This document shows, in pieces, positions 3,303 to 14,084 of a DNA stretch of 14,084 nucleotides (position 1 is its first letter; every line of letters begins with the position of its first letter). The position numbers and the translations under genes are program-made. Below the pieces are notes generated by a model that was given only the letters and a program-made list of their open reading frames with translations, did no database searches and had not been told where the DNA came from. The stretch comes from a virus (lineage: Duplodnaviria; Heunggongvirae; Uroviricota; Caudoviricetes): positions 1 to 14,084 of IMG/VR virus record IMGVR_UViG_2541047837_000006. One strand, written 5' to 3'.

Positions 3303-3521
3303 TCAAAGAGAGAGCGCCACCTGCCCTGATTTCATTGGATGCGGCTGAACCGGATTTGACTCTTTTGGCGTTGCAATCGAACGAACAAAAGTTTCATGAG
3401 TAACAAAAGTATGGCTGCAGTTAATGTTCTGGCACTGGTTGTAACGCTCTTTGGTCAATGAAGATACCTGAAAACTGCTGCGAGTATGGGCGGCACTTCC
3501 ACACAGTGGGCAAATCATCAT
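3303..3521 (-). CDS. ogr: Ogr/Delta-family zinc-finger late transcription activator
   Basis: 72-aa product from ATG at 3521 (SD-like GGGGAGAA upstream); C-x2-C-x22-C-x4-C motif (CPLC ... CQNINC). The ORF is open to a GTG at 3554, so the start is uncertain. Confidence 0.85.
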   Translation of the reverse strand: MMICPLCGSAAHTRSSFQVSSLTKERYNQCQNINCSHTFVTHETFVRSIATPKESNPVQPHPMKSGQVALSL

Positions 3522-3611
3522 TTTTCGAGTTCTCCCCATTTTTGCTAAATTCACAATAATGATACCGCATTATCCCATTTTGCAAACTTAAAAGTTCTCC
3601 ATTGCGAAGAA

Positions 3612-4880
3612 TCATTCCATTTCGAAATCATCAATCCTCACTTCAAGCTCCAGACTGGTCGTAAAACCATTATCCGGGCTGACGGTATGTGTCAGAGTCG
3701 TAATGGTCCATTCCGCATCATCTATCGGCTGTTTAAAGCCACTGACTTTCACTGGCATTTCCGTGTAGAGATCTGCCCGCCCTTCCGCCAGTTGTAGCGA
3801 GAATGACGCAACGCCGCGTTGCAGGCGTTCCCACTGCATTTTCGCCGCTCGTTCAGCGTTGCCCCGGTTGGCATAAGTACGATTAAGTACCAGCACGTTT
3901 TCATCCGTACCCACCAGGTAATCGCCCTGCTTCGCTTCCGGCTCTTTCTTCTGCTTTGCGGTCCTGCGCTTACGCTTCACCGTGGTGCTTTCTTTCTTCG
4001 CGGGTTCGCGGGTATGCAACCAGCTGGCAATTACGCCCGTGTAAGATCCGCGATCTGCCAGGGTAAAGCGGTGACTGTCGCCGTCCTTACGTGTGATAGT
4101 GATCACCGGCAGTGGTTTACCGCTGGCGCTTTTACCCTGTCCCTGCCGAATGAATAACAGATTGCCATTTTTCACCGACGCAATAGCACCGTACTGGCGC
4201 GCCAGCCGCATCAGAAAACTGCCGTCACTCTCATTAGTCTGGTCTATATGTTCCACGGGTTTATCTGACAGGTCTTTACCCAGTGCCATCTTCAGCTTGT
4301 GACGCGCGGCTATTTCCTTCACCACTTCCCCAACTGTGGTCTTGTGCCACGATTTTTCACGGCGGGTATTCAGCGTTTCCCGAAAATCAGCACTTCGCGC
4401 CCGGACACCGTCCACAATTTCCACCATGTTGATAAGGTCCACTTCGTAGAGCACCTCACCATTGATGGTCAGCTTCGCGTAGCTGTTGGTACTGGTCACT
4501 TTGGTGGTGTTGCTTTCGCCCGTCTTCCACTCGCCGGAATCCACTTCTTTGTGACGTCCACGCACCACAAGCTCCACGGCCTGCACTTCCCCGGTATCGT
4601 CACGCTGGATAGAGCCGGTAAAGCGCAGCTGGATGCCATCCACCGTAGCTTTGCCCATCTGCTTAAACAGCAGCAGCTCAGTACCGCCAATGGAAAATTC
4701 AGTATCCAGTGCGCCGTCATCCAGTCCCAGATCCACATCCACCGCCCCCGGCATACCGCCGCCGCGATACTTCTCATATTTGCGGGTGAATTTCGGCAGC
4801 GTCAGCGACTCTACGATCCCCTGCCAGTTGTTCCCGTCGTTAAACAGGTTCAGATGTTTTAATTTACGTGGTAAAGCCAT
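3612..4880 (-). CDS. Chimeric ORF: tail tube FII-like N-terminus (~155 aa) fused in frame to tail protein D-like C-terminus (~265 aa); probable deletion product
   Basis: N-terminus MALPRKLKHLNLFNDG resembles P2 FII tail tube; C-terminus resembles the gpD family and sits directly upstream of ogr as D does in P2. The genes expected between FII and D (E, E', T, U) are absent. Confidence 0.65.
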   Translation of the reverse strand: MALPRKLKHLNLFNDGNNWQGIVESLTLPKFTRKYEKYRGGGMPGAVDVDLGLDDGALDTEFSIGGTELLLFKQMGKATVDGIQLRFTGSIQRDDTGEVQAVELVVRGRHKEVDSGEWKTGESNTTKVTSTNSYAKLTINGEVLYEVDLINMVEIVDGVRARSADFRETLNTRREKSWHKTTVGEVVKEIAARHKLKMALGKDLSDKPVEHIDQTNESDGSFLMRLARQYGAIASVKNGNLLFIRQGQGKSASGKPLPVITITRKDGDSHRFTLADRGSYTGVIASWLHTREPAKKESTTVKRKRRTAKQKKEPEAKQGDYLVGTDENVLVLNRTYANRGNAERAAKMQWERLQRGVASFSLQLAEGRADLYTEMPVKVSGFKQPIDDAEWTITTLTHTVSPDNGFTTSLELEVRIDDFEME

Positions 4881-4889
4881 GTTGCCCCC

Positions 4890-6062
4890 TTACGCGCTTA
4901 CCTGGCTGGAGAAATTCACCAGGTACTGATCGGTGATGCGCTGACGCAGCATCAGGTTTTCAAGTGGCGGTACTGGCGTGTAGTCGTAATCGATGGTGAG
5001 TTTTCCGGCTTTCAGCGTGTCTTTATCGTTCACCGACTCGTCCAGCCAGCAATCACCACCAATGAGATAGCCCTGACTGACCAGGCTGCGCATTTTGGCG
5101 CGAATACCTTCGATAATGTCGCGGGCCAGCGACGGGTTCAGCGGTTTGTCCACCGCCCACATATGCGCTTCTGCCATCGTGTCCATCAGTACCTGCGCCG
5201 TGCGGGTGTAGTTTTCGAAGGCAAAGAGCGGGTCATCACTCAGGCAGCGGGAACCCCAGAAGCGGAAACCGTCTTTGCGGATAAGCGTGGTGACGTCGTT
5301 CTGGTTAAGCAGTCCCGCATCGGTTGCCGGGTCCTGCAGATCCCAGAACACATCAGCAGAAATTCCGGTGACACCGTTCACGCCTACGTTGGACAGGCTC
5401 TTGTGCCACCCGGTCTGCTCATCAATTTTGGCGCGCAGACCGAGCGCACGGGCGGTGGCATATGCCGTTGCTTCGGCATTCAGCACCGTGTCCCAGCCAG
5501 TAAAGTCAGGCCAGATCAGCATCCCTTCGCGCTGACTGAAGTTTTCACGGTAAGTGATCGCCTCCTGCACTGTCTTGCAGCCATACGCTGACAGGTAAGC
5601 AAACCCGCGCAGGCTTTGCGCCACACTCAGCAGCTCAGTCGCAACGGCTTTGTTATCGTGACCCGGCACGCCGAGAATGCGCGGTTTAACGCCGAGCTGT
5701 GACTGGGCAGATAACAGGGCTTTCATACCTGTTTTTTTACCCTCGGCGGTCACTGCGCCAATGATATTGGTTGTGGTTTCTTCTTCCGTTTCACCCTGCG
5801 GCACACGCACAACAACGGTCACGGGTTTTGCCTGGTCAGCGATGGCATCCAGCGAACGGGCCAGCGTGCCGGACTCACCCGCTTTACCGCTGGCAGTCAG
5901 CACATCAGTGATCAGCACGGGTTTATTAAGAGGAAACATTTTTGCATCGGCATCATCGCCCGTGCAGACCATGCCCACGATGGCGGTGCTCACCGTGGTA
6001 ATGGATCGGGTGCCTTCGTTGACTTCAACAACGCGCACTCCGTGGTGGTAATCCTGAGCCAT
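4890..6062 (-). CDS. FI: Contractile tail sheath protein FI
   Basis: 390-aa product; N-terminus [19 protein letters not shown] and C-terminal region [13 protein letters not shown] match P2 FI as I recall it; immediately upstream of the FII-like ORF. Confidence 0.9.
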
Positions 6063-6084
6063 AAGGCAGTCTCTCCGGTTGTAG

Positions 6085-6160
6085 AGGGGGTCTGCCTATG
6101 TTCTGGTTGATACGCGCAGGGTGCACGCGATGGGGATTGTATGGGAAATGGCACAACAGC
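6085..6160 (-). promoter_or_regulatory. Putative Ogr-dependent late promoter pF (dyad TGT-N12-ACA at 6138-6155)
   Basis: TGT (6138-6140), 12-nt spacer, ACA (6153-6155); dyad centre about 85 nt upstream of the FI ATG, consistent with a -55 activator site and ~30-nt leader. Confidence 0.5.
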
Positions 6161-6275
6161 GCCATGAGGGCTTTTCATAAAATAATCAATATATCTCAAT
6201 ATGTATTGATTATTATACGCAAATCTATTTTACTATTGCGCATCTGTCATCCATTTAAATCAGATTGAATACTAT

Positions 6276-7307
6276 ATGAAAAGAGATATTTCTTTAGACC
6301 TGTTACGTATTATTTGTTGTATTTTTGTAATAGGAATTCATGTCACGCCCGACTATGCTTATACTGTTACCAGTAACCAAACAGAAAGTATACAAATACA
6401 AACTCTTTTTGCACAATCAATTGTACGCATTGGTTTACCAATATTCTTTATGTTAAGTGGATACTACCTACTCAACAGACAAAATAGCACTCCACTTTTG
6501 TTTTATAAAAAAAGAATCCCCGCCATTATTATCCCTTTTGTAATATATTCATTAGCACATTACTATATTATTAGCTGGAATAATGGAACGTCATCGAATT
6601 TACTTGAATATTTCTCATTAATATCTAAAAGCACTATTTCACTCTCTGTGCATTTCTGGTTTGTTTATGCCTTTATCGGTTTGTATTTAACCGCTCCAGC
6701 AATTCAATACATAGTCAATAAAATCCCACAAGCCGACAGCCTTAAGGTGATTATAGTTTTGGCTTTCATTTTTTATTATTCATTATACTCATACTCTCTA
6801 AGCCAATCCTCTCAATACTACCATCATTTAATCCCATTACAGAGCATAGATACATGGGTTTTATATTTTGTTGTCGGCGGATTATTAAAAAGAGTTGACA
6901 TTAAAACACATTATATTGTATATAGCATCCCTTTTATATTTTTACTACATGTGATGTTTGTTTATTTTAGCGTTAACAAATATAACTTTAACATATACCC
7001 ATTTGACTCAGGGATTAATATGTTGTTAATGTGTTCCTTGATAGTAATTGCATTTACAAAAATAAACATCAATAATAAAAAAATAATTTTAATCATTGAA
7101 AAAATAGCACCTCTGACATACGGAATTTATTTAATTCATGTTTGTGTTTTCAGAGTCTTAGAGAAATATTTCAATATTCCTTTTATCGTGGACAACATTT
7201 TACTAAAAACAACATCCCTGTCTTTAGTCATTTTTTTTATCAGCCTTGGTTTAAGCTTGATTATTGATCGGTTGTTTGTTAATCCAATTCTCAGACTGAA
7301 TCGTTAA
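6276..7307 (+). CDS. Acyltransferase-3 family integral membrane protein (Oac/OafA-like acyltransferase); prophage cargo gene
   Basis: 343 aa, highly hydrophobic with multiple predicted TM segments; N-terminal LDLLRIICCIFVIGIHV resembles the family signature; strongly AT-rich; occupies the position of Z/fun in P2. Confidence 0.72.
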   Translation: MKRDISLDLLRIICCIFVIGIHVTPDYAYTVTSNQTESIQIQTLFAQSIVRIGLPIFFMLSGYYLLNRQNSTPLLFYKKRIPAIIIPFVIYSLAHYYIISWNNGTSSNLLEYFSLISKSTISLSVHFWFVYAFIGLYLTAPAIQYIVNKIPQADSLKVIIVLAFIFYYSLYSYSLSQSSQYYHHLIPLQSIDTWVLYFVVGGLLKRVDIKTHYIVYSIPFIFLLHVMFVYFSVNKYNFNIYPFDSGINMLLMCSLIVIAFTKININNKKIILIIEKIAPLTYGIYLIHVCVFRVLEKYFNIPFIVDNILLKTTSLSLVIFFISLGLSLIIDRLFVNPILRLNR

Positions 7308-7767
7308 ATGGCTTAGTCGGAAAGGCTGTATCAGAGGCTTTTGATGGATCAATAGCCTCTAATGCTTCAATATAATCAAGCCATATGTTATACATTTCCA
7401 GTTCAGTAGCATTCAGTCTCCCAAGCAATGCTTTCCCCTGCCATTGTTTGTTATTTATATAATTTACAGCTTCTATTATACGTGCTTGTTTTTCAGTTTT
7501 TGCTTTAGCCACTAACTCTGTATATGTGAGTGGTGGCGTATCAATCCATGCAGGCATACCATTATCATCTGCCCCAAGAATTTTTCCTTCCGGAGGTTGT
7601 TTCATGAATTCACAAGCAGTCTCATTTGAAATATCCACCCCTTCCTTAGGCCACATTCCATTTCTTTCATATTCATTTTTTAATATATACGCCATAAATC
7701 TGGCATTTACCTTATCCCATATGAAATCATAAGAAGAATCATGTTGATAATCATCACAACTTTTCAT
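7291..7767 (-). CDS. Tail fibre assembly chaperone (Tfa / gpG-like)
   Basis: 158-aa ORF starting 2 nt after the H stop; soluble protein with a C-terminal region resembling Tfa proteins; AT-rich like the 3' end of H. Confidence 0.6.
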   Translation of the reverse strand: MKSCDDYQHDSSYDFIWDKVNARFMAYILKNEYERNGMWPKEGVDISNETACEFMKQPPEGKILGADDNGMPAWIDTPPLTYTELVAKAKTEKQARIIEAVNYINNKQWQGKALLGRLNATELEMYNIWLDYIEALEAIDPSKASDTAFPTKPFNDSV

Positions 7768-7769
7768 AT

Positions 7770-9209
7770 TTAATATCCAAATGCAATAAATACAGCGCCT
7801 GAAACTTTTGAATCACTGCTGGTTCCTGATGTCAAACAAGTTACAGCAGTAAACCCATCATTATATATACTTTCGCACGACGTAACGACTTGTGCATATG
7901 TCATTTTTGTGACAAACACACCCCATACTCCGTTAGGGAATGGCGTTGGATATGTAATAGGAAGCTGTTGTGGAATACCAATAGTTGTACTATTAGGAAG
8001 ATTTCTTCGAAATATTTGTATAATTAAACCATTCGGACCTTTAACCAACAAATTATCGCTTCCTTTTCCTGTTAGCTGAAAATAGCTCATGTCAGGGATT
8101 TCATAACTATTAGCATTACCAACATTTCTACCTGCCGCATTTCCCAAATGCCCTAAACCAAGATAAGTAAGAATTCCTTCTATATCCTTTCCACTCAAAT
8201 TAGTCAGCGTATTATCCAGCGGTTGTTTGCCTGCCAGCGCATTAAGCATTGTCGTGGCAAAGTTCGGGTCATTCCCCAGCGCCGCCGCCAGTTCGTTCAG
8301 TGTATCCAGTGCCGCAGGTGCAGACCCCACCATTGCTGCAATTGCCGATTTCACAAAAGCTGTAGTGGCAATCTGTGTATTGTTGACCGACTGCGCCGCC
8401 GTGGGGGCTGTTGGCGTTCCGGTGAGTGCCGGACTCGACAACGGTGCTTTTAGTGCCAGCACATTGTTAATGGTGGTACTGAAATTCGGATCATTGTTAA
8501 TGGCTGCGGCTATTTCTTTCAGCGTGTCCAGCGTGGCTGGCGCACCATTAATAAGGGCCGTCAGTGCCGCCTGAACAAACGCAGTGGTCGCAACCTGCGT
8601 GGTATTATTCCCCGCCGCTGGCGTTGGCGCTTTGGGGGTTCCGGTAAACGTCGGACTTTCTTTGGGTGCATACTGTGAATGTGGGTCCTGTGCGGCAAGG
8701 TGTTTTGCCATCAGGTCATCCACATACACCTTCAGCTCCAGTACCTTGTCATCCACATACTTGCGGGTTGCCAGCACTACAGCAGGATCGATTTTCAGGG
8801 TGATATTTTCCGTGCTGCTGGTAATCAGCACCATGCGCACGGTCTGGGTGCGCCCGCTGCCTTCAGCCAGTTGCGGCTTATAGCTTTCCGGGCAGTTGCC
8901 CACGGCAATCAATGCCCCGGACTCATCAAACAGGCCCACTTCACGTATCCACCAACCTCCCTCGTTTTCAGGGATCACCTGTTCGGCAATAATCTGGCTG
9001 CTGTTCTGCGGGTCGATATAGAGCATATTCAGCGCAGCCCGGCGTTTCTCATTTACCAGTGCCGTCTGCTTTGCGTCCGGCGTTGGCAATGTTCCGCCGC
9101 CATCGCCGACCGCCATATGGGTAATTTTTAAAGGCACACCGAGCGCGGCGGCGCTGGCAAGTTTCGCCGCGCCAATATCCGTCAGCAGGGTATAAAATTT
9201 TGTGCTCAT
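7770..9209 (-). CDS. H: Tail fibre protein H with conserved N-terminus and divergent C-terminal receptor-binding region
   Basis: N-terminus MSTKFYTLLTDIGAAKLA ... MAVGDGGG ... ESYKPQLAEGSGR resembles P2 gpH; internal repeats contain the NELAAALGNDPNF motif; C-terminal ~160 aa unrelated and AT-rich. Confidence 0.85.
   Translation of the reverse strand: MSTKFYTLLTDIGAAKLASAAALGVPLKITHMAVGDGGGTLPTPDAKQTALVNEKRRAALNMLYIDPQNSSQIIAEQVIPENEGGWWIREVGLFDESGALIAVGNCPESYKPQLAEGSGRTQTVRMVLITSSTENITLKIDPAVVLATRKYVDDKVLELKVYVDDLMAKHLAAQDPHSQYAPKESPTFTGTPKAPTPAAGNNTTQVATTAFVQAALTALINGAPATLDTLKEIAAAINNDPNFSTTINNVLALKAPLSSPALTGTPTAPTAAQSVNNTQIATTAFVKSAIAAMVGSAPAALDTLNELAAALGNDPNFATTMLNALAGKQPLDNTLTNLSGKDIEGILTYLGLGHLGNAAGRNVGNANSYEIPDMSYFQLTGKGSDNLLVKGPNGLIIQIFRRNLPNSTTIGIPQQLPITYPTPFPNGVWGVFVTKMTYAQVVTSCESIYNDGFTAVTCLTSGTSSDSKVSGAVFIAFGY
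8230..8700. repeat. Diverged tandem duplication (~230 bp unit) inside tail fibre gene H
   Basis: Two protein-level repeats (ATTAFV...ALDTL.E.AAA...DPNF.TT) and corresponding DNA similarity, e.g. gttccggtgagtgccgg versus gttccggtaaacgtcgg; boundaries approximate. Confidence 0.55.
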
Positions 9210-9811
9210 GGATTCACTCTCATTGTGTCAATAACATGGACCGCCCCGCCTTCATGCGCGGTGCCGCCGGAAATAATTGTTTCGTTGATATACGGATAGA
9301 TCGTGATTTCTTCACCAAGATAGCTGGCGGCTCCCACCCAATGCGGGCCGCTGGTCTGCAGATTGATGGACATGCCGATCATGTGACGGCTACATGGTTT
9401 GGCATCGCTTATCAGCCGCTCAAGCTCCAGATAGGTATCTTCAGTGATGCCCTGGTCCTGCACACCAATGTCCAGGCGAAACGTACCCGGTGTTTCTCCG
9501 GTCTGCCACCACTCAATAATGCGGATCAGGAAGCCGAACGGCTCCACCACCCGCCGCACGGCACTGGTGGTTCCTTTATGCTGATGAATATAAAAAGCAT
9601 CCTTCACCACCTGTCGTTTGACGCTTTCCGTCCAGCCCTCGTCCCAGCGATCCACAGAGAACGCCCAGGCGAGATAAGGCAGGAAACTGATCGGACAGGT
9701 CGTTGGATTCCACAAGTCACGCAGCGGCACCTGCAGATCAGAAATCCCGCTGCAGGTTTGCGCCAGTCGGCGCTCCAGTGGCGTTGAACCCGGTGGCAGC
9801 AGACTATTCAT
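9206..9811 (-). CDS. I: Baseplate/tail protein I
   Basis: 201-aa product with the motif LRDLWNPTTCP ... LAWAFSVDRWDE ... GTFRLDIGV ... DAKPCSRHMIG resembling P2 gpI; start overlaps the preceding J' stop and its stop overlaps the H start. Confidence 0.8.
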   Translation of the reverse strand: MNSLLPPGSTPLERRLAQTCSGISDLQVPLRDLWNPTTCPISFLPYLAWAFSVDRWDEGWTESVKRQVVKDAFYIHQHKGTTSAVRRVVEPFGFLIRIIEWWQTGETPGTFRLDIGVQDQGITEDTYLELERLISDAKPCSRHMIGMSINLQTSGPHWVGAASYLGEEITIYPYINETIISGGTAHEGGAVHVIDTMRVNP

Positions 9812-10034
9812 CCGTTCCTCCGTTGGTTACGCTCCACTGCGTACATGATGCCGCCTGTGTTTTGTTCAGGACCACATCCGCCAGAGGAGAAGCCAGCTCC
9901 ACACGCTGCACACCCTCAACATGCAGGGCGGCAAAGATGGCGCTACGGCGAATATCCCGACCAAGACGCGTCTGACTGGCGATGTACTTCTGCAGGCTGG
10001 CTTTTGCCGCTGCCATTACCGGCTCTGCTTCCGG
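9804..10034 (-). pseudogene. J: Baseplate protein J, C-terminal ~70-aa fragment
   Basis: Translation AKASLQKYIASQTRLGRDIRRSAIFAALHVEGVQRVEL resembles the gpJ C-terminus; the frame is closed by a stop at 10035-10037, so the N-terminal ~230 aa are absent. Confidence 0.6.
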
Positions 10035-10375
10035 TCAGCGAACTTCGGGCTGACTTCCATAGAGGTGAATAATTTCTGGCCTTTTTTCACCAGTTCCACC
10101 AGGGACTCCGTTGGCTCAACGTCGGCATACAGCGCCATCTTGCCTGCCAGCGGACCTTCCGTGATTTCTTCAGCAAACAGCGCCGTCACCTTGCCGTAGC
10201 GGTTAAAGGTGCTGTCCGGCAGATAAGACTTGATGTGCTCAAGGTTAATCAGCGCGGTATACACCGCCGGGTTGTAGCTGGCTGCCATCTGTTCCAGCCA
10301 TTCTCGCTGGATTTCGCGTCCGTCGGTGGTGGCACCTTCCACCCCGATGCGAAAACGCTTTGCTTTCACTGTCAT
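10016..10375 (-). pseudogene. O: Capsid scaffold protein O, N-terminal ~110-aa fragment
   Basis: Translation FRIGVEGATTDGREIQ ... INLEHIK ... TSMEVSPKFA resembles the gpO N-terminus; ORF ends after 119 aa versus ~280 aa for intact O. Confidence 0.65.
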
Positions 10376-10399
10376 GAGCCGTGCTCCGTTAGAAAAAAC

Positions 10400-10475
10400 T
10401 TACTGGAGCCTTATGGTTGCGGTGATGGGGGCAGTGAAACAATGCGCGGTATTTGTACCGACAACCACACAAACC
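10400..10475 (-). promoter_or_regulatory. Putative Ogr-dependent late promoter pO (dyad TGT-N12-ACA at 10454-10471)
   Basis: TGT (10454-10456), 12-nt spacer, ACA (10469-10471); dyad centre ~87 nt upstream of the O' ATG, the same spacing as the FI dyad. Confidence 0.5.
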
Positions 10476-10517
10476 GCAGGCGGGGAAAGCCTTCATTCAA
10501 GGCTGTAGGTTTGTGCC

Positions 10518-11372
10518 ATGAACACCACACTGACACCCGCAGATCTCGATCCCCGTCGGCAGGCCATGCTGCTGTACTTTCAGGGATACCGCGTAGCCCG
10601 CATTGCTGAAATGCTGGGCGAGAAAGTTGCAACCGTTCACAGCTGGAAAAAACGCGACAAGTGGGGTGACTATGGGCCGCTGGATCAGATGCAGCTCACC
10701 ACCGCCGCACGCTACTGCCAGCTCATCATGAAGGAGCACAAAGAAGGGAAAGATTTCAAAGAGATTGACCTGCTGGCGCGCCAGTCTGAGCGCCACGCGC
10801 GGATCGGCAAGTTTAACAATGGCGGCAACGAATCCGACTTAAACCCTAACGTCGCCAACCGCAACAAAGGCCCACGCCGTCAGCCGGAAAAGAATGTTTT
10901 CACCGATGAGCAGATTGAGAAGCTGGAAGAAATCTTCCATTCCTCCATGTTCAACTACCAGCGCCACTGGTGGGAAGCCGGAAAAACCAACCGCATCCGC
11001 AACCTGCTGAAGTCACGCCAGATCGGCGCGACCTTTTACTTTGCCCGTGAAGCCCTGATTGACGCCCTGCTGACCGGACGTAACCAGATTTTCCTTTCCG
11101 CCAGCAAGGCACAGGCCCACGTCTTTAAGCAGTACATCATCGACTTCGCCAAAGAAGTGGAGGTGGAGTTGAAAGGCGATCCGATGGTGCTTCCTAACGG
11201 GGCCACGCTTTACTTCCTCGGCACCAATGCCCGCACTGCCCAGAGTTATCACGGCAACCTGTATCTGGATGAATATTTCTGGATACCGAAATTCCAGGAG
11301 CTGCGCAAAGTGGCTTCCGGTACCGCACCTGCAGCAACACGCCCGATCTCTGCGGTTGCACTCATGACGTAA
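10518..11372 (+). pseudogene. P: Terminase large subunit P, N-terminal ~268-aa fragment
   Basis: Translation ...[15 protein letters not shown] ... [12 protein letters not shown] ... [15 protein letters not shown] ... [15 protein letters not shown] resembles the gpP N-terminus; similarity ends near 11321 and the ORF stops at 11372 versus ~590 aa for intact P. Confidence 0.8.
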
Positions 11373-11662
11373 TGTGGCAGTTTCTCTTTTGCCACCTCAT
11401 TAATTGGTACGCATGGCAGGCAGTGAATCTGTGCCAGAAAACCATCTACCAACGTTGAATCTTCAGTCAGATCGGTAAGCAGCCAGATTTCTGGTGCGGT
11501 TAATAAATGAGGTTGAGCTGGGTTCAGCTTGTTCCGCAGAATCTGCACATTCATGCCCGCACGTTCTGCCAGTTGCACCAGATTGTGGCGCAGTGCGAAT
11601 GCACGACAGGCTTCATCAAAATGTGGATGTTTGGAAACTTGGTAATCAAACATGGTTTTCAA
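11249..11662 (-). pseudogene. 186 CII-like transcription activator, 3'-truncated; ORF tail runs antisense into the P fragment
   Basis: N-terminal ~105 aa with an HTH-like segment ([19 protein letters not shown]) and position downstream of the apl-like gene; the last ~30 codons are the antisense of P coding sequence. Confidence 0.5.
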
Positions 11663-11717
11663 CTCCGAACTTATCGCAAAATCGAACTCAGCGTCTTATT
11701 GCGAAAATAGACGTCTA

Positions 11718-11921
11718 TTAAGCAGACAAAGCATCAACAGTCAGAGCAGCCAGGTTAATCATTACCTTTTCACGTTTTTTGTCTTTACGAAGACGATGAC
11801 GAGGTAGTCGGCCATCAGCCAACATGTCGTTAATCGTATCAATAGAAAGGCCAGTCAGTTCGCTATAACGTTCGATTGTGACATGTGGTGTATTCAGAGT
11901 AATTGAAATGTTAGGTGTCAT
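11718..11921 (-). CDS. Apl/Cox-like small DNA-binding excisionase and switch regulator
   Basis: 67-aa basic ORF, first gene divergent from the repressor and followed by the CII-like gene, the arrangement of the 186 lytic operon; SD-like AAGGA upstream. Confidence 0.6.
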
Positions 11922-12066
11922 AAGGCAACATTCCTTCTAGATATGGCTTGTGGCGAGCCGTTGTTTGTCGTGATTAGTAGTGAAGGCTCCAAAAGAACAC
12001 TTCTGGTTCAACTTTAAGATCGCTTTTGGAATCTGTCAACGAATTTTGGATTTCTTTGGAGGACTT
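11922..12066. promoter_or_regulatory. Putative immunity switch region (lytic and lysogenic promoters with operators) between apl-like and cI-like genes
   Basis: Divergent gene starts; 8-bp perfect inverted repeat tccaaaag (11988-11995) / cttttgga (12023-12030). Promoter elements not individually resolved. Confidence 0.4.
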
Positions 12067-12636
12067 GTGGATTTCAATAGCGGCGGTAAGAAAGCCATAG
12101 AACGTTTAGTTGAAGCATATGGGTTCGGTACCCGTCAGGCTCTCTGTGATCATTTAGGTGTTTCTAAGAGCACCATGGCAACGCGCTATATGCGTGATAT
12201 TTTTCCAGCAGATTGGGTAATCCAGTGCGCCCTTGAAACGGGCACCTCGCTTAATTGGCTAACAACAGGGCATGGTTCAAAGCAAGCATCAGCAAATACA
12301 AATACTATAGAAGTAGAAAAATATTTATTGTCTGATGGAGCATTGCAGAAAGACGGTTTTTATATTTTTGATAAGGGATTTCTACCCTCTACGTTTAAAA
12401 AACCTTTTGTCATCACAGATAACAATTCTGAATTTATTTGTGATAAAGAATTTGATGATATACGTGATGGTAAATGGGTAATAAGTATTGATGGCGAAAT
12501 AACGATCCGTGACATTACTCGTTTACCCGGTGGAAGAATCTTCGTCGAGGGTGGAAACAGAGCCTTCGAATGCAAGATAGAAGACATTGAAATAATTGGT
12601 AAAATTATAAGTTTAACAGTCAAGCATGTTAAATAG
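12067..12636 (+). CDS. 186 CI-type immunity repressor (~189 aa)
   Basis: Divergent from apl and upstream of int; LVEAYGFG N-terminal region and overall length consistent with the 186 CI family. Start set at GTG 12067 (GGAGGA at 12058-12063); the ORF is open to a GTG at 11980, so the start is uncertain. Confidence 0.65.
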   Translation: MDFNSGGKKAIERLVEAYGFGTRQALCDHLGVSKSTMATRYMRDIFPADWVIQCALETGTSLNWLTTGHGSKQASANTNTIEVEKYLLSDGALQKDGFYIFDKGFLPSTFKKPFVITDNNSEFICDKEFDDIRDGKWVISIDGEITIRDITRLPGGRIFVEGGNRAFECKIEDIEIIGKIISLTVKHVK

Positions 12637-12651
12637 TACCGGGAGGAAACT

Positions 12652-12843
12652 ATGCTTGGTAAGGTATTTTTTGTGGTTTTGTCATGTTCTTTGTTATTAA
12701 ACCCACTAACTACCTATGCTAGAAATTATCCCTGCTCAGGGAAAAAGGGAGGTGTTTCTCACTGTACCTCAGATGGCAAATTCGTTTGCAATGATGGAAC
12801 TATTAGTAAATCCAAAAAAATCTGTACTAAAAACTCACGATAA
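12652..12843 (+). CDS. Small secreted or lipid-anchored Cys-rich protein (63-aa precursor) of unknown function
   Basis: Strong SD GGGAGG 6 nt upstream of the ATG; N-terminal signal peptide ([23 protein letters not shown]); basic mature part of ~40 aa with 4 Cys; 15 nt downstream of cI on the same strand; AT-rich. Confidence 0.5.
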
Positions 12844-13031
12844 CTTTTGCTTTTATATCTGCGTCTAAAATAAAAATGAGCCGCAGGTTAACCGCAAAAG
12901 TTACATGCTCACATAGCAAAAAGAATAGCCAACTTCATGATGGCTTCAGTGAGATGTATGGTCGTAGGATTTCATACATTGACACTGGTTATACATACAG
13001 TAAAAATGCTCTCTACTGGAGGGCATTTTTT

Positions 13032-14084
13032 ATGGCAGTACGAAAACTCACCACAGGGAAATGGCTTTGCGAATGTTACCCCGCCGGACGTAGTGGGCGT
13101 CGTGTGCGTAAACAATTCGCCACCAAAGGCGAAGCTCTGGCTTTTGAGCGCCACACGATGGAAGAAACCGAAGCAAAGCCCTGGCTGGGTGAATCAGTGG
13201 ATCGTCGAACACTGAAAGACGTAGTTGAGCTATGGTTCAAACTACATGGTAAATCTCTGACAGCTGGGCAGCATGTCTATGACAAATTGCTGTTGATGGT
13301 TGACGCTCTGGGTAATCCTCTTGCAACCGATCTCACCTCTAAAATGTTTGCCCACTATCGAGATAAACGCCTGACAGGCGAGATCTACTTCAGCGAGAAA
13401 TGGAAGAAAGGAGCAAGCCCGGTCACCATTAACCTGGAGCAAAGCTATCTAAGTAGTGTTTTTAGCGAACTATCCCGTCTGGGCGAATGGTCGTATCCGA
13501 ACCCACTGGAGAACATGCGAAAATTCACCATCGCAGAAAAAGAGATGGCATGGCTTACCCATGAGCAGATTGTTGAATTGCTGGCTGATTGCAAACGTCA
13601 GGACCCAATTCTGGCACTGGTAGTTAAGATATGCTTAAGCACAGGCGCACGCTGGCGTGAAGCCGTAAATCTTACCCGCTCACAGGTGACCAAATACCGA
13701 ATTACCTTTGTCAGAACGGAGGGGAAGAAAAACAGAAGCATCCCTATCAGTAAAGAGCTTTACGAAGAGATCATGGCGCTTGATGGGTTCAATTTCTTTA
13801 CAGACTACTATTTTCAATTTTTATCCGTGATGGAAAAAACGTCTATCGTGCTCCCTCGCGGTCAACTCACACACGTTCTGCGCCATACGTTTGCGGCGCA
13901 CTTCATGATGTCGGGTGGAAACATTCTCGCCTTACAAAAAATTCTCGGACACCACGATATAAAAATGACTATGCGTTACGCACATCTGGCACCAGATCAT
14001 CTGGAAACGGCGCTCCGTTTCAATCCTCTGGCAACGCTGCCAAGTGGCGACAAAGTGGCGGCAGCGGTTGGCATTACCCCGTAA
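13032..14084 (+). CDS. int: Tyrosine recombinase (phage integrase)
   Basis: Catalytic signature present: R in LSTGARWREA, H-x-x-R in HVLRHTFAAH, Y in MTMRYAHL; N-terminal MAVRKLTTGKW typical of this integrase family. The ORF is open from 12876 but the extension is AT-rich and unlike integrase N-termini. Confidence 0.9.
   Translation: MAVRKLTTGKWLCECYPAGRSGRRVRKQFATKGEALAFERHTMEETEAKPWLGESVDRRTLKDVVELWFKLHGKSLTAGQHVYDKLLLMVDALGNPLATDLTSKMFAHYRDKRLTGEIYFSEKWKKGASPVTINLEQSYLSSVFSELSRLGEWSYPNPLENMRKFTIAEKEMAWLTHEQIVELLADCKRQDPILALVVKICLSTGARWREAVNLTRSQVTKYRITFVRTEGKKNRSIPISKELYEEIMALDGFNFFTDYYFQFLSVMEKTSIVLPRGQLTHVLRHTFAAHFMMSGGNILALQKILGHHDIKMTMRYAHLAPDHLETALRFNPLATLPSGDKVAAAVGITP

What the first reader, a model, noticed from the sequence alone, without database searches (positions are those of the whole stretch)
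12652..12843. Small secreted Cys-rich protein embedded in the repressor-integrase (lysogenic) operon
A 63-aa ORF with a strong SD and a signal peptide sits 15 nt downstream of the CI-type repressor and upstream of int, on the same strand. Genes in this position are expressed in the lysogen, where superinfection-exclusion functions are typically encoded. The mature ~40-aa product is basic with four cysteines, suggesting a disulfide-stabilised periplasmic or outer-membrane peptide; a lipoprotein reading (Cys at position 12 after VLS) is also possible. This would fit a receptor-masking function like the small lipoproteins Llp (T5) or Cor (phi80), but that analogy is speculative. The locus is AT-rich relative to the flanking phage genes, indicating separate acquisition.
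Basis: partly seen in the sequence, partly recalled or inferred. Interest (0 to 1): 0.72.

Follow-up and report, generated by a model that had tools for sequence, protein, structure and literature searches.

The report
Prophage YdcA-family exported mini-protein
The small ORF after the phage repressor is a real, strongly conserved gene for a tiny exported, disulfide-bonded protein of the catalogued but uncharacterised YdcA family; it keeps recurring just downstream of the immunity repressor in P2-like prophages, but it is not a lipoprotein and nothing supports the proposed Llp/Cor-type receptor masking.

Summary
The 63-codon ORF at 12652-12843 has a GGAGG Shine-Dalgarno site, lies 15 nt after cI and 188 nt before int, and encodes a signal peptide plus a 40-aa mature peptide (pI 9.7, four Cys).

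It is not new as a sequence. It passes NCBIfam NF007463, matches phrog_6000, carries Pfam PF27300 (YdcA), and RefSeq names it "YdcA family protein". It occurs in 648 of 5426 complete E. coli genomes, including BL21(DE3).

It is a real gene: against diverged prophage copies, synonymous sites are saturated while only 2-5 non-synonymous changes occur in 32 codons.

The lipoprotein reading fails. Cys12 is not conserved, whereas Ala at -1 of a signal-peptidase-I site is invariant. The AT-rich tract also covers the cI C-terminal half, so it does not mark separate acquisition.

New here:
- The gene follows the immunity repressor on the same strand in P2-like prophages of Enterobacterales, Haemophilus HP2/S2 (unannotated there) and betaproteobacteria, often with variable cargo before int.
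- The domain probably matches one lobe of Legionella Dis2, an outer-membrane-proximal T4SS subunit.
- The domain is fused to three unrelated secreted nuclease families.

Function is untested. I favour a periplasmic binder that conditions the lysogen's envelope, possibly excluding incoming DNA. Llp/Cor-type masking is unlikely.

The parts
11321..11653 (-). cII gene fragment (3'-truncated by a deletion joint at about 11321)
   Evidence: Pfam Phage_CP76 E 8e-38. PGAP marks it as a pseudogene. The BLAST breakpoint against the intact prophage falls here.
11718..11921 (-). apl/cox-like excisionase-repressor, first gene of the lytic (pR) transcript
   Evidence: phrog_575 Cox-like E 1e-29. Same position as apl in phage 186.
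11922..12066 (.). Switch region between apl and cI. It contains a pR-like match on the minus strand (12039-12011, TTGACA-17-TAAAGT). pL is expected here by analogy with 186.
   Evidence: Promoter scan. Layout of 186 pR/pL. pL itself was not located, so it is inferred.
12067..12636 (+). 186-type CI immunity repressor
   Evidence: Pfam Phage_CI_repr E 2.5e-31 and Phage_CI_C E 3.4e-29. PGAP 'phage repressor protein CI'.
12642..12646 (+). Shine-Dalgarno GGAGG, 5 nt before the ATG
   Evidence: Read from the sequence. Diverged homologues also carry AAGGA/AAGGAG at this spot.
12652..12720 (+). Signal peptide (codons 1-23), predicted SPase-I cleavage after TYA
   Evidence: Hydrophobic core with mean KD 2.86. 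Ala-23 is invariant, the upstream sequence is variable, and Cys12 is not conserved.
12721..12843 (+). Mature YdcA domain (40 aa, four Cys, pI 9.7) plus stop codon
   Evidence: NF007463 115.8 bits against a cutoff of 93. phrog_6000 E 1.9e-34. PF27300 precomputed. 16 invariant residues. Strong purifying selection.
12844..13031 (+). Spacer before int. Its int-proximal part of about 90 nt is conserved in prophages with or without extra cargo, and includes a promoter-like match at 12979-13007.
   Evidence: Alignment of window, BL21 and L007. Promoter scan. No Rfam match.
13032..14084 (+). Tyrosine integrase (P2/186 type)
   Evidence: Pfam Int_N E 3e-32 and Phage_integrase E 1.4e-20. PGAP.

Best explanation
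The ORF encodes a YdcA-family mini-protein made in the lysogen.

Shown:
- It is a conserved gene under strong purifying selection.
- It lies on the cI strand, 15 nt after cI, with its own Shine-Dalgarno site and no intervening terminator.
- It has a conserved Sec/SPase-I type leader and a 36-40 residue mature domain with four invariant cysteines and a PCSGxKGG...FxCxDGxxSxSKxxC signature.

Inferred:
- It is co-transcribed with cI from pL (and from pE during establishment), exported by Sec, cleaved after Ala-23, and oxidised to two disulfides in the periplasm.
- At 40 residues it can hardly be an enzyme, so it must act by binding.
- The same module probably forms each lobe of Legionella Dis2, which sits just under the outer membrane on the DotC/DotD/DotK part of a T4SS.
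- The same module is the N-terminal appendage of secreted nucleases from three unrelated families.

I therefore read it as a portable periplasmic docking or polyanion-binding module. Its target is conserved across proteobacteria and lies near the outer membrane or in transit through the periplasm.

My favoured function for the prophage copy is protection of the lysogen at the periplasmic stage, against incoming DNA or the machines that deliver it, rather than masking of a surface receptor. That functional step is a guess, at about 0.3. The identity, export and lysogenic expression are much firmer, at about 0.85.
For: Family membership:
- NF007463 above its cutoff, phrog_6000, PF27300, and the PGAP name.

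Real gene:
- Synonymous sites are saturated, with 2-5 non-synonymous changes in 32 codons.
- 648 of 5426 E. coli genomes carry it. The protein is identical in intact and decayed prophages.

Export without lipidation:
-.
- The Dis2 cryo-EM model starts at residue 39/40, just after the aligned AFA site.

Lysogenic-operon position:
- CI->YdcA->(cargo)->int in Escherichia, Klebsiella, Hafnia, Buttiauxella and Yersinia.
- HP2: the ORF's ATG overlaps the last base of the cI stop codon.
- An HTH_3-type repressor followed by (0-1 ORF) and then YdcA, in betaproteobacterial prophages; P2-type gpD is confirmed nearby in two of the five (L028, L095).
- The 186 record defines the operon.

Dis2 link:
- phmmer E 3e-5, with both lobes matching.
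- Foldseek top hit, probability 0.97.
- hhalign 82%, E 1e-5, against a Dis2-like protein that itself carries PF27300.
- Dis2 biology from PMC8486379 and PMC12716638.

Nuclease fusions:
- SNase, Endonuclease_NS (three proteins) and PLDc_2.

Charge:
- The mature peptide is basic and rich in Gly, Lys and Ser.

Defence cargo in the same slot:
- PDC-S20.
Against: - No transcription, export, localisation or phenotype data exist for this gene. Literature searches for the family, its accessions and model names found no functional study.
- Dis2 contacts proteins, not DNA, and is dispensable.
- Nuclease fusions could reflect envelope anchoring rather than DNA binding.
- Immediate neighbours in about 70 of the fetched loci are heterogeneous and include no T4SS genes.
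- The chromosomal paralogue is reported as acid-induced, and its deletion sensitises E. coli W to 3-hydroxypropionate (PMC7642389). That points to host physiology rather than exclusion.
- There is no PADLOC hit.
Confidence: 0.55

Rival explanations
1. A host-physiology conversion factor. The prophage copy does what the chromosomal ydcA does, an envelope or stress function such as acid or organic-acid tolerance. It raises lysogen fitness and has nothing to do with other phages.
For: - A chromosomal paralogue lies next to cybB in E. coli, Shigella and other Escherichia species.
- K-12/W ydcA is reported as YdcI-controlled and acid-induced, and its deletion sensitises E. coli W to 300 mM 3-HP (PMC7642389).
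- The family occurs in many non-phage contexts and on small plasmids.
- The mature sequence is highly conserved across genera.
Against: - The physiological evidence is one deletion phenotype in one study, with no mechanism.
- It does not explain why the gene is repeatedly placed directly behind immunity repressors of three types.
- It does not explain why the domain is appended to nucleases or built into a T4SS cap.
Confidence: 0.25
2. A Dis2-like accessory or decoy for type IV secretion. The peptide docks on outer-membrane-proximal lipoproteins of a conjugative T4SS and modulates conjugation, for example entry exclusion or inhibition of plasmid transfer into or out of the lysogen.
For: - Similarity to both lobes of Dis2, a T4SS outer-membrane-cap subunit that contacts DotC, DotD and DotK.
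- A homologue sits on a 3.9-kb MOBQ mobilisable plasmid next to a TraD-like gene.
- UniRef labels the cluster 'Conjugal transfer protein'.
Against: - The UniRef label is an unsupported automatic name.
- No T4SS genes appear among the neighbours at about 70 loci.
- Dis2 is described as specific to Legionellales, and loss of Dis2 barely affects the machine.
- The similarity is weak once the signal peptide is removed.
Confidence: 0.1
3. One reading: an outer-membrane lipoprotein that masks a phage receptor, as Llp of T5 and Cor of phi80 mask FhuA.
For: - Small size and export.
- Expression from the lysogenic operon, inferred from the 186 layout.
- The window allele happens to have VLSC at residues 9-12.
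Against: - Cys12 is missing in most homologues, and the conserved feature is Ala at -1 of an SPase-I site.
- There is no similarity to any annotated exclusion family.
- About 75% identity of the mature domain across hosts with different surface receptors.
- The gene is next to cI, not next to a receptor-binding protein gene.
- Chromosomal and plasmid paralogues exist.
Confidence: 0.05
4. A chance ORF in an AT-rich spacer, not a gene.
For: It is short (63 codons) and lies in AT-rich DNA, where stop-free stretches are less informative.
Against: - Synonymous differences are saturated with almost no amino-acid change.
- The family forms 459 clusters at 50% identity, with 16 invariant residues.
- It passes a curated NCBIfam cutoff.
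Confidence: 0.01

Closest known systems
E. coli YdcA (b1419) and the YdcA family (Pfam PF27300; NCBIfam NF007462/NF007463, PRK10040; phrog_6000)
   Same: Same family by curated model: NF007463 scores 115.8 bits against a cutoff of 93. It shares the architecture (Sec leader plus one four-Cys domain of about 36 aa) and the signature PCSGxKGG..C..FxCxDGxxSxSKxxC. RefSeq already names this exact protein 'YdcA family protein'.
   Different: It belongs to the prophage subfamily NF007463. It scores below cutoff against the NF007462 subfamily model (68.5 bits against 118), which I take to be the chromosomal K-12 YdcA type; that assignment rests on my recollection of the K-12 sequence and was not checked. 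It is embedded in a cI-int operon rather than next to cybB. No member has a demonstrated molecular function.
Legionella pneumophila Dis2 (Lpg0823), outer-membrane-cap subunit of the Dot/Icm T4SS (PDB 7MUC/7MUD)
   Same: Each of the two Dis2 lobes carries the motif GG[IV]..C.S.G..VCN[DN]G..S, and Dis2 also has a Sec leader ending in AFA. Dis2 is the only PDB hit by sequence (E 3e-5) and the top Foldseek hit (probability 0.97). hhalign gives 82% against a Dis2-like protein that carries PF27300. Both are disulfide-pinned and periplasmic.
   Different: Dis2 has two lobes and five disulfides, and is a stoichiometric part of a T4BSS described as specific to Legionellales. The window protein has one domain and no T4SS nearby. 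The similarity is weak without the leader (E 0.07).
Llp (T5) and Cor (phi80/N15/HK022) receptor-masking lipoproteins
   Same: They are small exported proteins that a phage uses to alter the envelope of an infected or lysogenic cell. This rests on general knowledge.
   Different: There is no lipobox conservation, no sequence similarity, a different genomic position, and cross-genus conservation that is incompatible with a receptor-specific mask.
Accessory genes co-transcribed with phage repressors (lambda rexAB; mycobacteriophage repressor-integrase defence cassettes; Ltp-type periplasmic injection blockers)
   Same: The gene sits immediately downstream of the immunity repressor on the lysogenic transcript. 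Sister prophages carry a candidate defence gene (PDC-S20 KAP NTPase) in the same interval.
   Different: There is no homology to any of these, and no exclusion phenotype has been shown. The comparison with the named systems rests on my own knowledge and was not tested here.

Membership tests
YdcA family (PF27300 / NF007463 / phrog_6000) | Scores above the curated cutoff of the family model | tested here: met
   NF007463 E 5.3e-34, 115.8 bits against a cutoff of 93. phrog_6000 E 1.9e-34. PF27300 is precomputed for the cluster. The local Pfam copy lacks PF27300, so that model was not run here.
YdcA family (PF27300 / NF007463 / phrog_6000) | Four invariant Cys and the PCSGxKGG / FxCxDG / SxSK motifs in a domain of about 36 aa | tested here: met
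   All 16 invariant columns of a 27-sequence alignment are present in the window protein. The consensus of 203 family domains is .n.[12 protein letters not shown]...gkFvCnDGs.S.SKk.C.
YdcA family (PF27300 / NF007463 / phrog_6000) | N-terminal Sec signal peptide with an SPase-I site a few residues before the first Cys | tested here: met
   Invariant Ala at -1 and a variable hydrophobic leader. This is by pattern only; no predictor or experiment was available.
Llp/Cor receptor-masking lipoproteins | Lipobox with an acylated Cys as mature residue 1 | tested here: not met
   VLSC at residues 9-12 leaves only an 8-residue leader. Cys12 is absent in most homologues. 28 of 223 members have any lipobox-like pattern.
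Llp/Cor receptor-masking lipoproteins | Sequence or profile similarity to Llp or Cor families | tested here: not met
   PHROGs at E<=1 returns only families of unknown function. PADLOC returns nothing.
Llp/Cor receptor-masking lipoproteins | Binds and inactivates the phage's own outer-membrane receptor (FhuA) | not testable with these tools
   This needs adsorption and binding assays.
Dis2-type T4SS outer-membrane-cap subunit | Two tandem lobes pinned by five disulfides | tested here: not met
   The window protein has a single domain with four Cys. Dis2 architecture is from PMC8486379.
Dis2-type T4SS outer-membrane-cap subunit | Homology of the lobe to the YdcA domain | tested here: inconclusive
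   [not shown]
Dis2-type T4SS outer-membrane-cap subunit | Part of, or encoded with, a Dot/Icm-type T4SS | tested here: not met
   The context is a P2/186-like prophage. No T4SS families appear among neighbours of related loci.
Known anti-phage defence systems (PADLOC-DB 2.0) | Match to a defence protein model | tested here: not met
   No hit for the ORF. The neighbouring cargo of sister prophages does hit PDC-S20.

The most novel reading that the evidence does not exclude
The YdcA domain is a previously unrecognised periplasmic module that binds nucleic acid, or the outer-membrane-proximal parts of DNA-conducting machines. P2-like prophages express a free copy from the repressor transcript as a new kind of periplasmic exclusion factor against incoming phage or plasmid DNA. 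Legionella duplicated the same module as Dis2, and secreted nucleases use it as a targeting domain. The factor would be present in about 12% of E. coli, including BL21(DE3).
Probability: 0.2. Interest if true: 0.7.

Novelty: new member of a known kind. Interest (0 to 1): 0.42.

Why it matters
The sequence is already catalogued: RefSeq, NCBIfam, Pfam and PHROGs all hold it as a family of unknown function. The gene itself is therefore not a discovery.

What is worth something is the context assembled here.
- A 40-residue exported protein under very strong purifying selection sits directly behind the immunity repressor in P2-like prophages of at least three bacterial orders, with three different repressor types.
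- It is carried by about one in eight complete E. coli genomes, including BL21(DE3) and E. coli C.
- It probably shares its fold with the two lobes of Legionella Dis2, whose role is also unknown.
- It is fused to secreted nucleases of three families.

Working out what it binds would assign a function to a widespread orphan family. It might also explain Dis2, and it would test whether the repressor-integrase interval of P2-like phages is a defence slot. The gene is easy to study because standard laboratory strains already carry it.

Tried and rejected
- Local Pfam scan gave no true hit, because the copy lacks PF27300.
- A PDB search with a mature-domain-only profile gave E 0.07 for Dis2 and similar scores for LDL-receptor class A repeats. 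I treat the LDLR matches as chance similarity between Cys-rich hairpins.
- Potato-type proteinase-inhibitor hits at E 0.2-2 are also treated as chance.
- The BFVD viral fold library gave nothing below E 0.9.
- The afdb50 library was unavailable.
- Rfam on 11000-14084 gave nothing real.
- PADLOC gave no hit for the ORF.
- A survey of 140 immediate neighbours at about 70 loci found no conserved partner. The DUF2946 neighbours come from one Atlantibacter/Citrobacter clade.
- Ten same-strand ORFs immediately upstream of the gene (nine directly adjacent; L018's CI lies one ORF further up) were checked for repressor domains. Only Buttiauxella L018 (CI type) was positive. The betaproteobacterial HTH_3 repressors turned up one ORF further out or in other loci.
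- The gonococcal genetic island gene called 'ydcA' and the UniRef name 'Conjugal transfer protein' were not verified as meaningful, and are not used as evidence.
- Literature searches for YdcA, PF27300, PRK10040, phrog_6000 and the WP accessions found no functional study.
- The minus-strand promoter-like match inside the cI 3' end (12632-12604) was dismissed, because promoter-like sites are fewer than in shuffles.

Full report
**1. The observation**

It spans 12652-12843 on the plus strand and encodes 63 aa: [63 protein letters not shown].
- GGAGG lies at 12642-12646, 5 nt before the ATG.
- The cI stop is at 12636, giving a 15-nt gap. int starts at 13032, giving a 188-nt gap.
- The flanking genes are a 186-type switch:
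  - a cII fragment (11321-11653, minus strand);
  - an apl/cox-like gene (11718-11921, minus strand);
  - CI (12067-12636; Pfam Phage_CI_repr and Phage_CI_C);
  - a P2/186-type integrase (13032-14084).
- The mature product after TYA|RN is 40 aa, with pI 9.7, 7 Lys, 2 Arg, 2 Asp and four Cys.

**2. It is a real gene**

Diverged copies occur in 186-like prophages of Escherichia (L007), Klebsiella (L011) and Hafnia (L013). Their mature regions are 76-82% identical in DNA to the window's and to one another, yet almost identical in protein. For window versus L007 there are 21 synonymous differences on 20.8 synonymous sites, which is saturation. There are only 2 non-synonymous differences on 75 sites. 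The only pair with a computable dS gives dN/dS 0.02. All copies keep a Shine-Dalgarno site.

**3. It is already catalogued**

- It passes NCBIfam NF007463 (PRK10040.1-2) at 115.8 bits against a cutoff of 93.
- It matches phrog_6000, a family of unknown function, at E 1.9e-34.
- Its cluster carries Pfam PF27300, named YdcA.
- RefSeq annotates the identical protein WP_000900883.1 as "YdcA family protein" or "hypothetical protein".
- An exhaustive profile search finds 459 clusters at 50% identity.
- A species-level genome scan finds 229 genomes, spread over Gamma-, Beta- and Alphaproteobacteria.
- 648 of 5426 complete E. coli genomes carry the prophage allele. These include BL21(DE3), whose protein differs only by R24K, and E. 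coli C.
- I found no paper on its function. One study reports that chromosomal ydcA is YdcI-controlled and acid-induced, and that its deletion sensitises E. coli W to 3-hydroxypropionate (PMC7642389).

**4. Signal peptide yes, lipoprotein no**

In a 27-sequence alignment the N-terminal ~20 residues are variable and hydrophobic, and Ala-23 (position -1) is invariant. The 16 invariant positions are Ala-23 itself and 15 residues that begin four positions after it. Cys12 is absent from most members. Only 28 of 223 family proteins show any lipobox-like pattern in the first 35 residues. The VLSC of the window allele would leave only an 8-residue leader. I conclude SPase-I processing and a soluble periplasmic product. 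This rests on pattern only, because no predictor or experiment was available.

**5. Composition**

The ORF has GC 0.354. However, the cI C-terminal domain (0.327) and the spacer before int (0.372) are equally AT-rich, against 0.487 for int. The low GC marks the whole immunity segment and is not evidence that the ORF was acquired separately.

**6. Context in this window**

The window is 100% identical to E. coli LR-64-2. The prophage lies between ybjL and rcdA (3303-14084) and is decayed.
- PGAP pseudogene joints lie at about 4404 (gpD'/tail tube'), about 10034 (baseplate'/scaffold') and about 11321 (terminase'/cII').
- BLAST against an intact relative (E. coli COL60J, L001) confirms the joints at 10034/10035 and 11321; the ~4404 joint rests on the PGAP pseudogene calls alone.
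- apl, cI, the ORF and int are intact, and 99.9% identical to the intact prophage.

**7. Is it in the lysogenic operon?**

In phage 186 itself cI abuts int, followed by orf69 and a "predicted terminator of lysogenic operon". The record annotates pL and pE as driving that operon. In the window no plus-strand terminator-like site lies between cI, the ORF and int. A pR-like promoter match faces apl at 12039-12011. Co-transcription with cI is therefore a well-founded inference, not a measurement.

**8. Synteny survey**

The gene sits directly after the immunity repressor, on the same strand, in many P2-like prophages.

| Arrangement | Where |
|---|---|
| CI -> YdcA -> int | This type; also Yersinia L020, L021, L036 |
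| CI -> YdcA -> KAP NTPase -> int | Escherichia L007-L010, Klebsiella L011-L012 |
| CI -> YdcA -> unknown 347-aa protein -> int | Hafnia L013-L014 |
| CI -> one ORF -> YdcA | Buttiauxella L018 |

- The window CI is 65% identical to that of L007.
- The KAP NTPase matches PADLOC PDC-S20 at E 1e-171 and resembles PifA.
- Haemophilus phages HP2 and S2 carry an unannotated 60-aa YdcA ORF. Its ATG overlaps the last base of the cI stop codon. It is followed by orf1(S) and int, and the CI there is only 32% identical.
- In betaproteobacteria (Iodobacter L022; Comamonas L023, L028, L064; Aquabacterium L095) an unrelated HTH_3-type repressor lies upstream on the same strand, with zero or one ORF between. 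One of these repressors also has a Peptidase_S24 domain. P2-type gpD is nearby in L028, L095 and Kingella L088.
- About 11 of the 78 loci in which the ORF was recognised show the repressor -> YdcA arrangement.
- Elsewhere the gene sits in late/tail modules of Moraxella and Acinetobacter phages, on plasmids including a 3.9-kb MOBQ plasmid, and in chromosomal loci with heterogeneous neighbours.
- Other 186-like phages put different cargo, or none, between cI and int.

The interval is therefore a cargo slot, and YdcA is its most constant occupant.

**9. What the domain resembles**

- The only PDB relative is chain AN of 7MUC and related entries. This is Legionella Dis2 (Lpg0823): phmmer E 3e-5 and profile E 1.8e-4, with both Dis2 lobes matching the motif.
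- An AlphaFold model (pLDDT 83-91 over residues 30-58) has Dis2 as its top Foldseek hit, with probability 0.97 and 39% identity over 38 columns.
- A Dis2-like metagenomic protein (P0228) carries a precomputed PF27300 hit, and it aligns to the YdcA profile with hhalign probability 82%, E 1e-5.

I rate homology as probable, not proven.

Dis2 is described as two similar lobes pinned by five disulfides. It sits near the outer membrane in the Dot/Icm cap, contacts DotC, DotD and DotK, and is dispensable for assembly with subtle effects on translocation. Its authors report no homologues outside Legionellales (PMC8486379, PMC12716638).

**10. Domain fusions**

Twenty of the longer family members were scanned. 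The YdcA domain follows the signal peptide and precedes the following partners:
- a staphylococcal-nuclease domain (P0116);
- DNA/RNA non-specific endonuclease domains (P0159, P0174, P0198);
- a PLD-type domain (P0170);
- a VasL domain (P0111).

Others are tandem arrays of two or three YdcA domains (P0079-P0082). Recurrent fusion to three unrelated nuclease families suggests one of two roles: binding nucleic acid or another polyanion, or tethering enzymes in the envelope.

**11. Mechanism**

Shown:
- the gene is real;
- it belongs to the YdcA family;
- it has a conserved leader and Cys pattern;
- it keeps its position behind repressors.

Inferred:
- co-transcription with cI;
- Sec export;
- two disulfides;
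- action by binding, since 40 residues leave no room for catalysis.

The target should be conserved across proteobacteria. The mature domain is about 75% identical between Escherichia, Haemophilus, Moraxella and Acinetobacter phage copies. That argues against masking of a phage-specific outer-membrane receptor.

Four lines fit together: the Dis2 location, the nuclease fusions, the basic Gly/Lys/Ser-rich motifs, and the defence cargo in the same slot. From these I favour a periplasmic binder that protects the lysogen at the stage where foreign DNA or its delivery machine crosses the periplasm. I put about 0.3 on that function.

A host-physiology role like that suggested for chromosomal ydcA is nearly as likely (0.25). 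A T4SS-directed role gets 0.1, the Llp/Cor model 0.05, and "not a gene" is excluded.

**12. Verdict**

Its placement of the gene in the lysogenic operon is sound. Its lipoprotein alternative and AT-content argument are wrong. Its Llp/Cor analogy is unsupported.

The gene is a prophage-borne member of a known but uncharacterised family. The new points are its recurrent coupling to immunity repressors, the probable Dis2 relationship, and the nuclease fusions. Interest is moderate. It is a tractable orphan present in laboratory strains, not a new kind of system on present evidence.

Noticed in passing
window 3303-14084: The prophage between ybjL and rcdA is decayed. Deletion joints lie at about 4404 (gpD'/tail tube'), about 10034 (baseplate'/capsid scaffold') and about 11321 (terminase'/cII'). 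ogr, sheath, tail-fibre genes, apl, cI, the YdcA gene and int remain intact.
   Followed up: partly
window 6276-7307 (+): An acyltransferase gene with GC 0.30 lies on the strand opposite the surrounding tail genes. It looks like a second moron, possibly modifying LPS or O-antigen.
   Followed up: no
[not shown]
   Followed up: yes
L007 4198-5529 (also L008-L012): Sister 186-like prophages of Escherichia and Klebsiella carry a 443-aa KAP-family NTPase between the YdcA gene and int. It matches PADLOC candidate system PDC-S20 (E 1e-171) and resembles PifA. The cI-int interval therefore acts as a defence/cargo slot.
   Followed up: partly
L097 6016-6207 (E. coli BL21(DE3), NC_012971.2): BL21(DE3) carries the same gene (protein differs by R24K). 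It lies in a P2-like remnant at the same rcdA site, a few kb from a retron St85-family reverse transcriptase and effector.
   Followed up: partly
proteins P0116, P0159, P0174, P0198, P0170, P0111, P0079-P0082: The YdcA domain occurs as an N-terminal module on SNase, Endonuclease_NS and PLD-type nucleases, on a VasL-domain protein, and as tandem arrays of two or three domains.
   Followed up: partly
L005 728-904 (Acinetobacter pittii plasmid pApiMCR53a, 3916 bp): A five-gene MOBQ mobilisable plasmid devotes one gene to a YdcA homologue, next to a TraD-like gene. Larger Acinetobacter and Rhizobium plasmids also carry homologues.
   Followed up: no
L024, L027, L029, L031, L034, L038 (Citrobacter and Atlantibacter chromosomes): In this clade the YdcA gene is followed by a His-rich DUF2946 protein and a 459-aa membrane protein. 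This could hint at a metal-related locus, but it is a single lineage.
   Followed up: no
window 12876-13031 and 12945-13031: The int reading frame is open for 52 codons upstream of the PGAP start (13032). The roughly 90 nt before int, including a TTGACA-17-AAAAAT match at 12979-13007, are conserved in prophages with and without cargo. This suggests an int-proximal regulatory element.
   Followed up: partly
window 12632-12604 (-): An 11-of-12 sigma-70 consensus match (TTAACA-17-TATAAT) lies antisense inside the 3' end of cI. Promoter-like sites in the region are not more frequent than in shuffled sequence.
   Followed up: no
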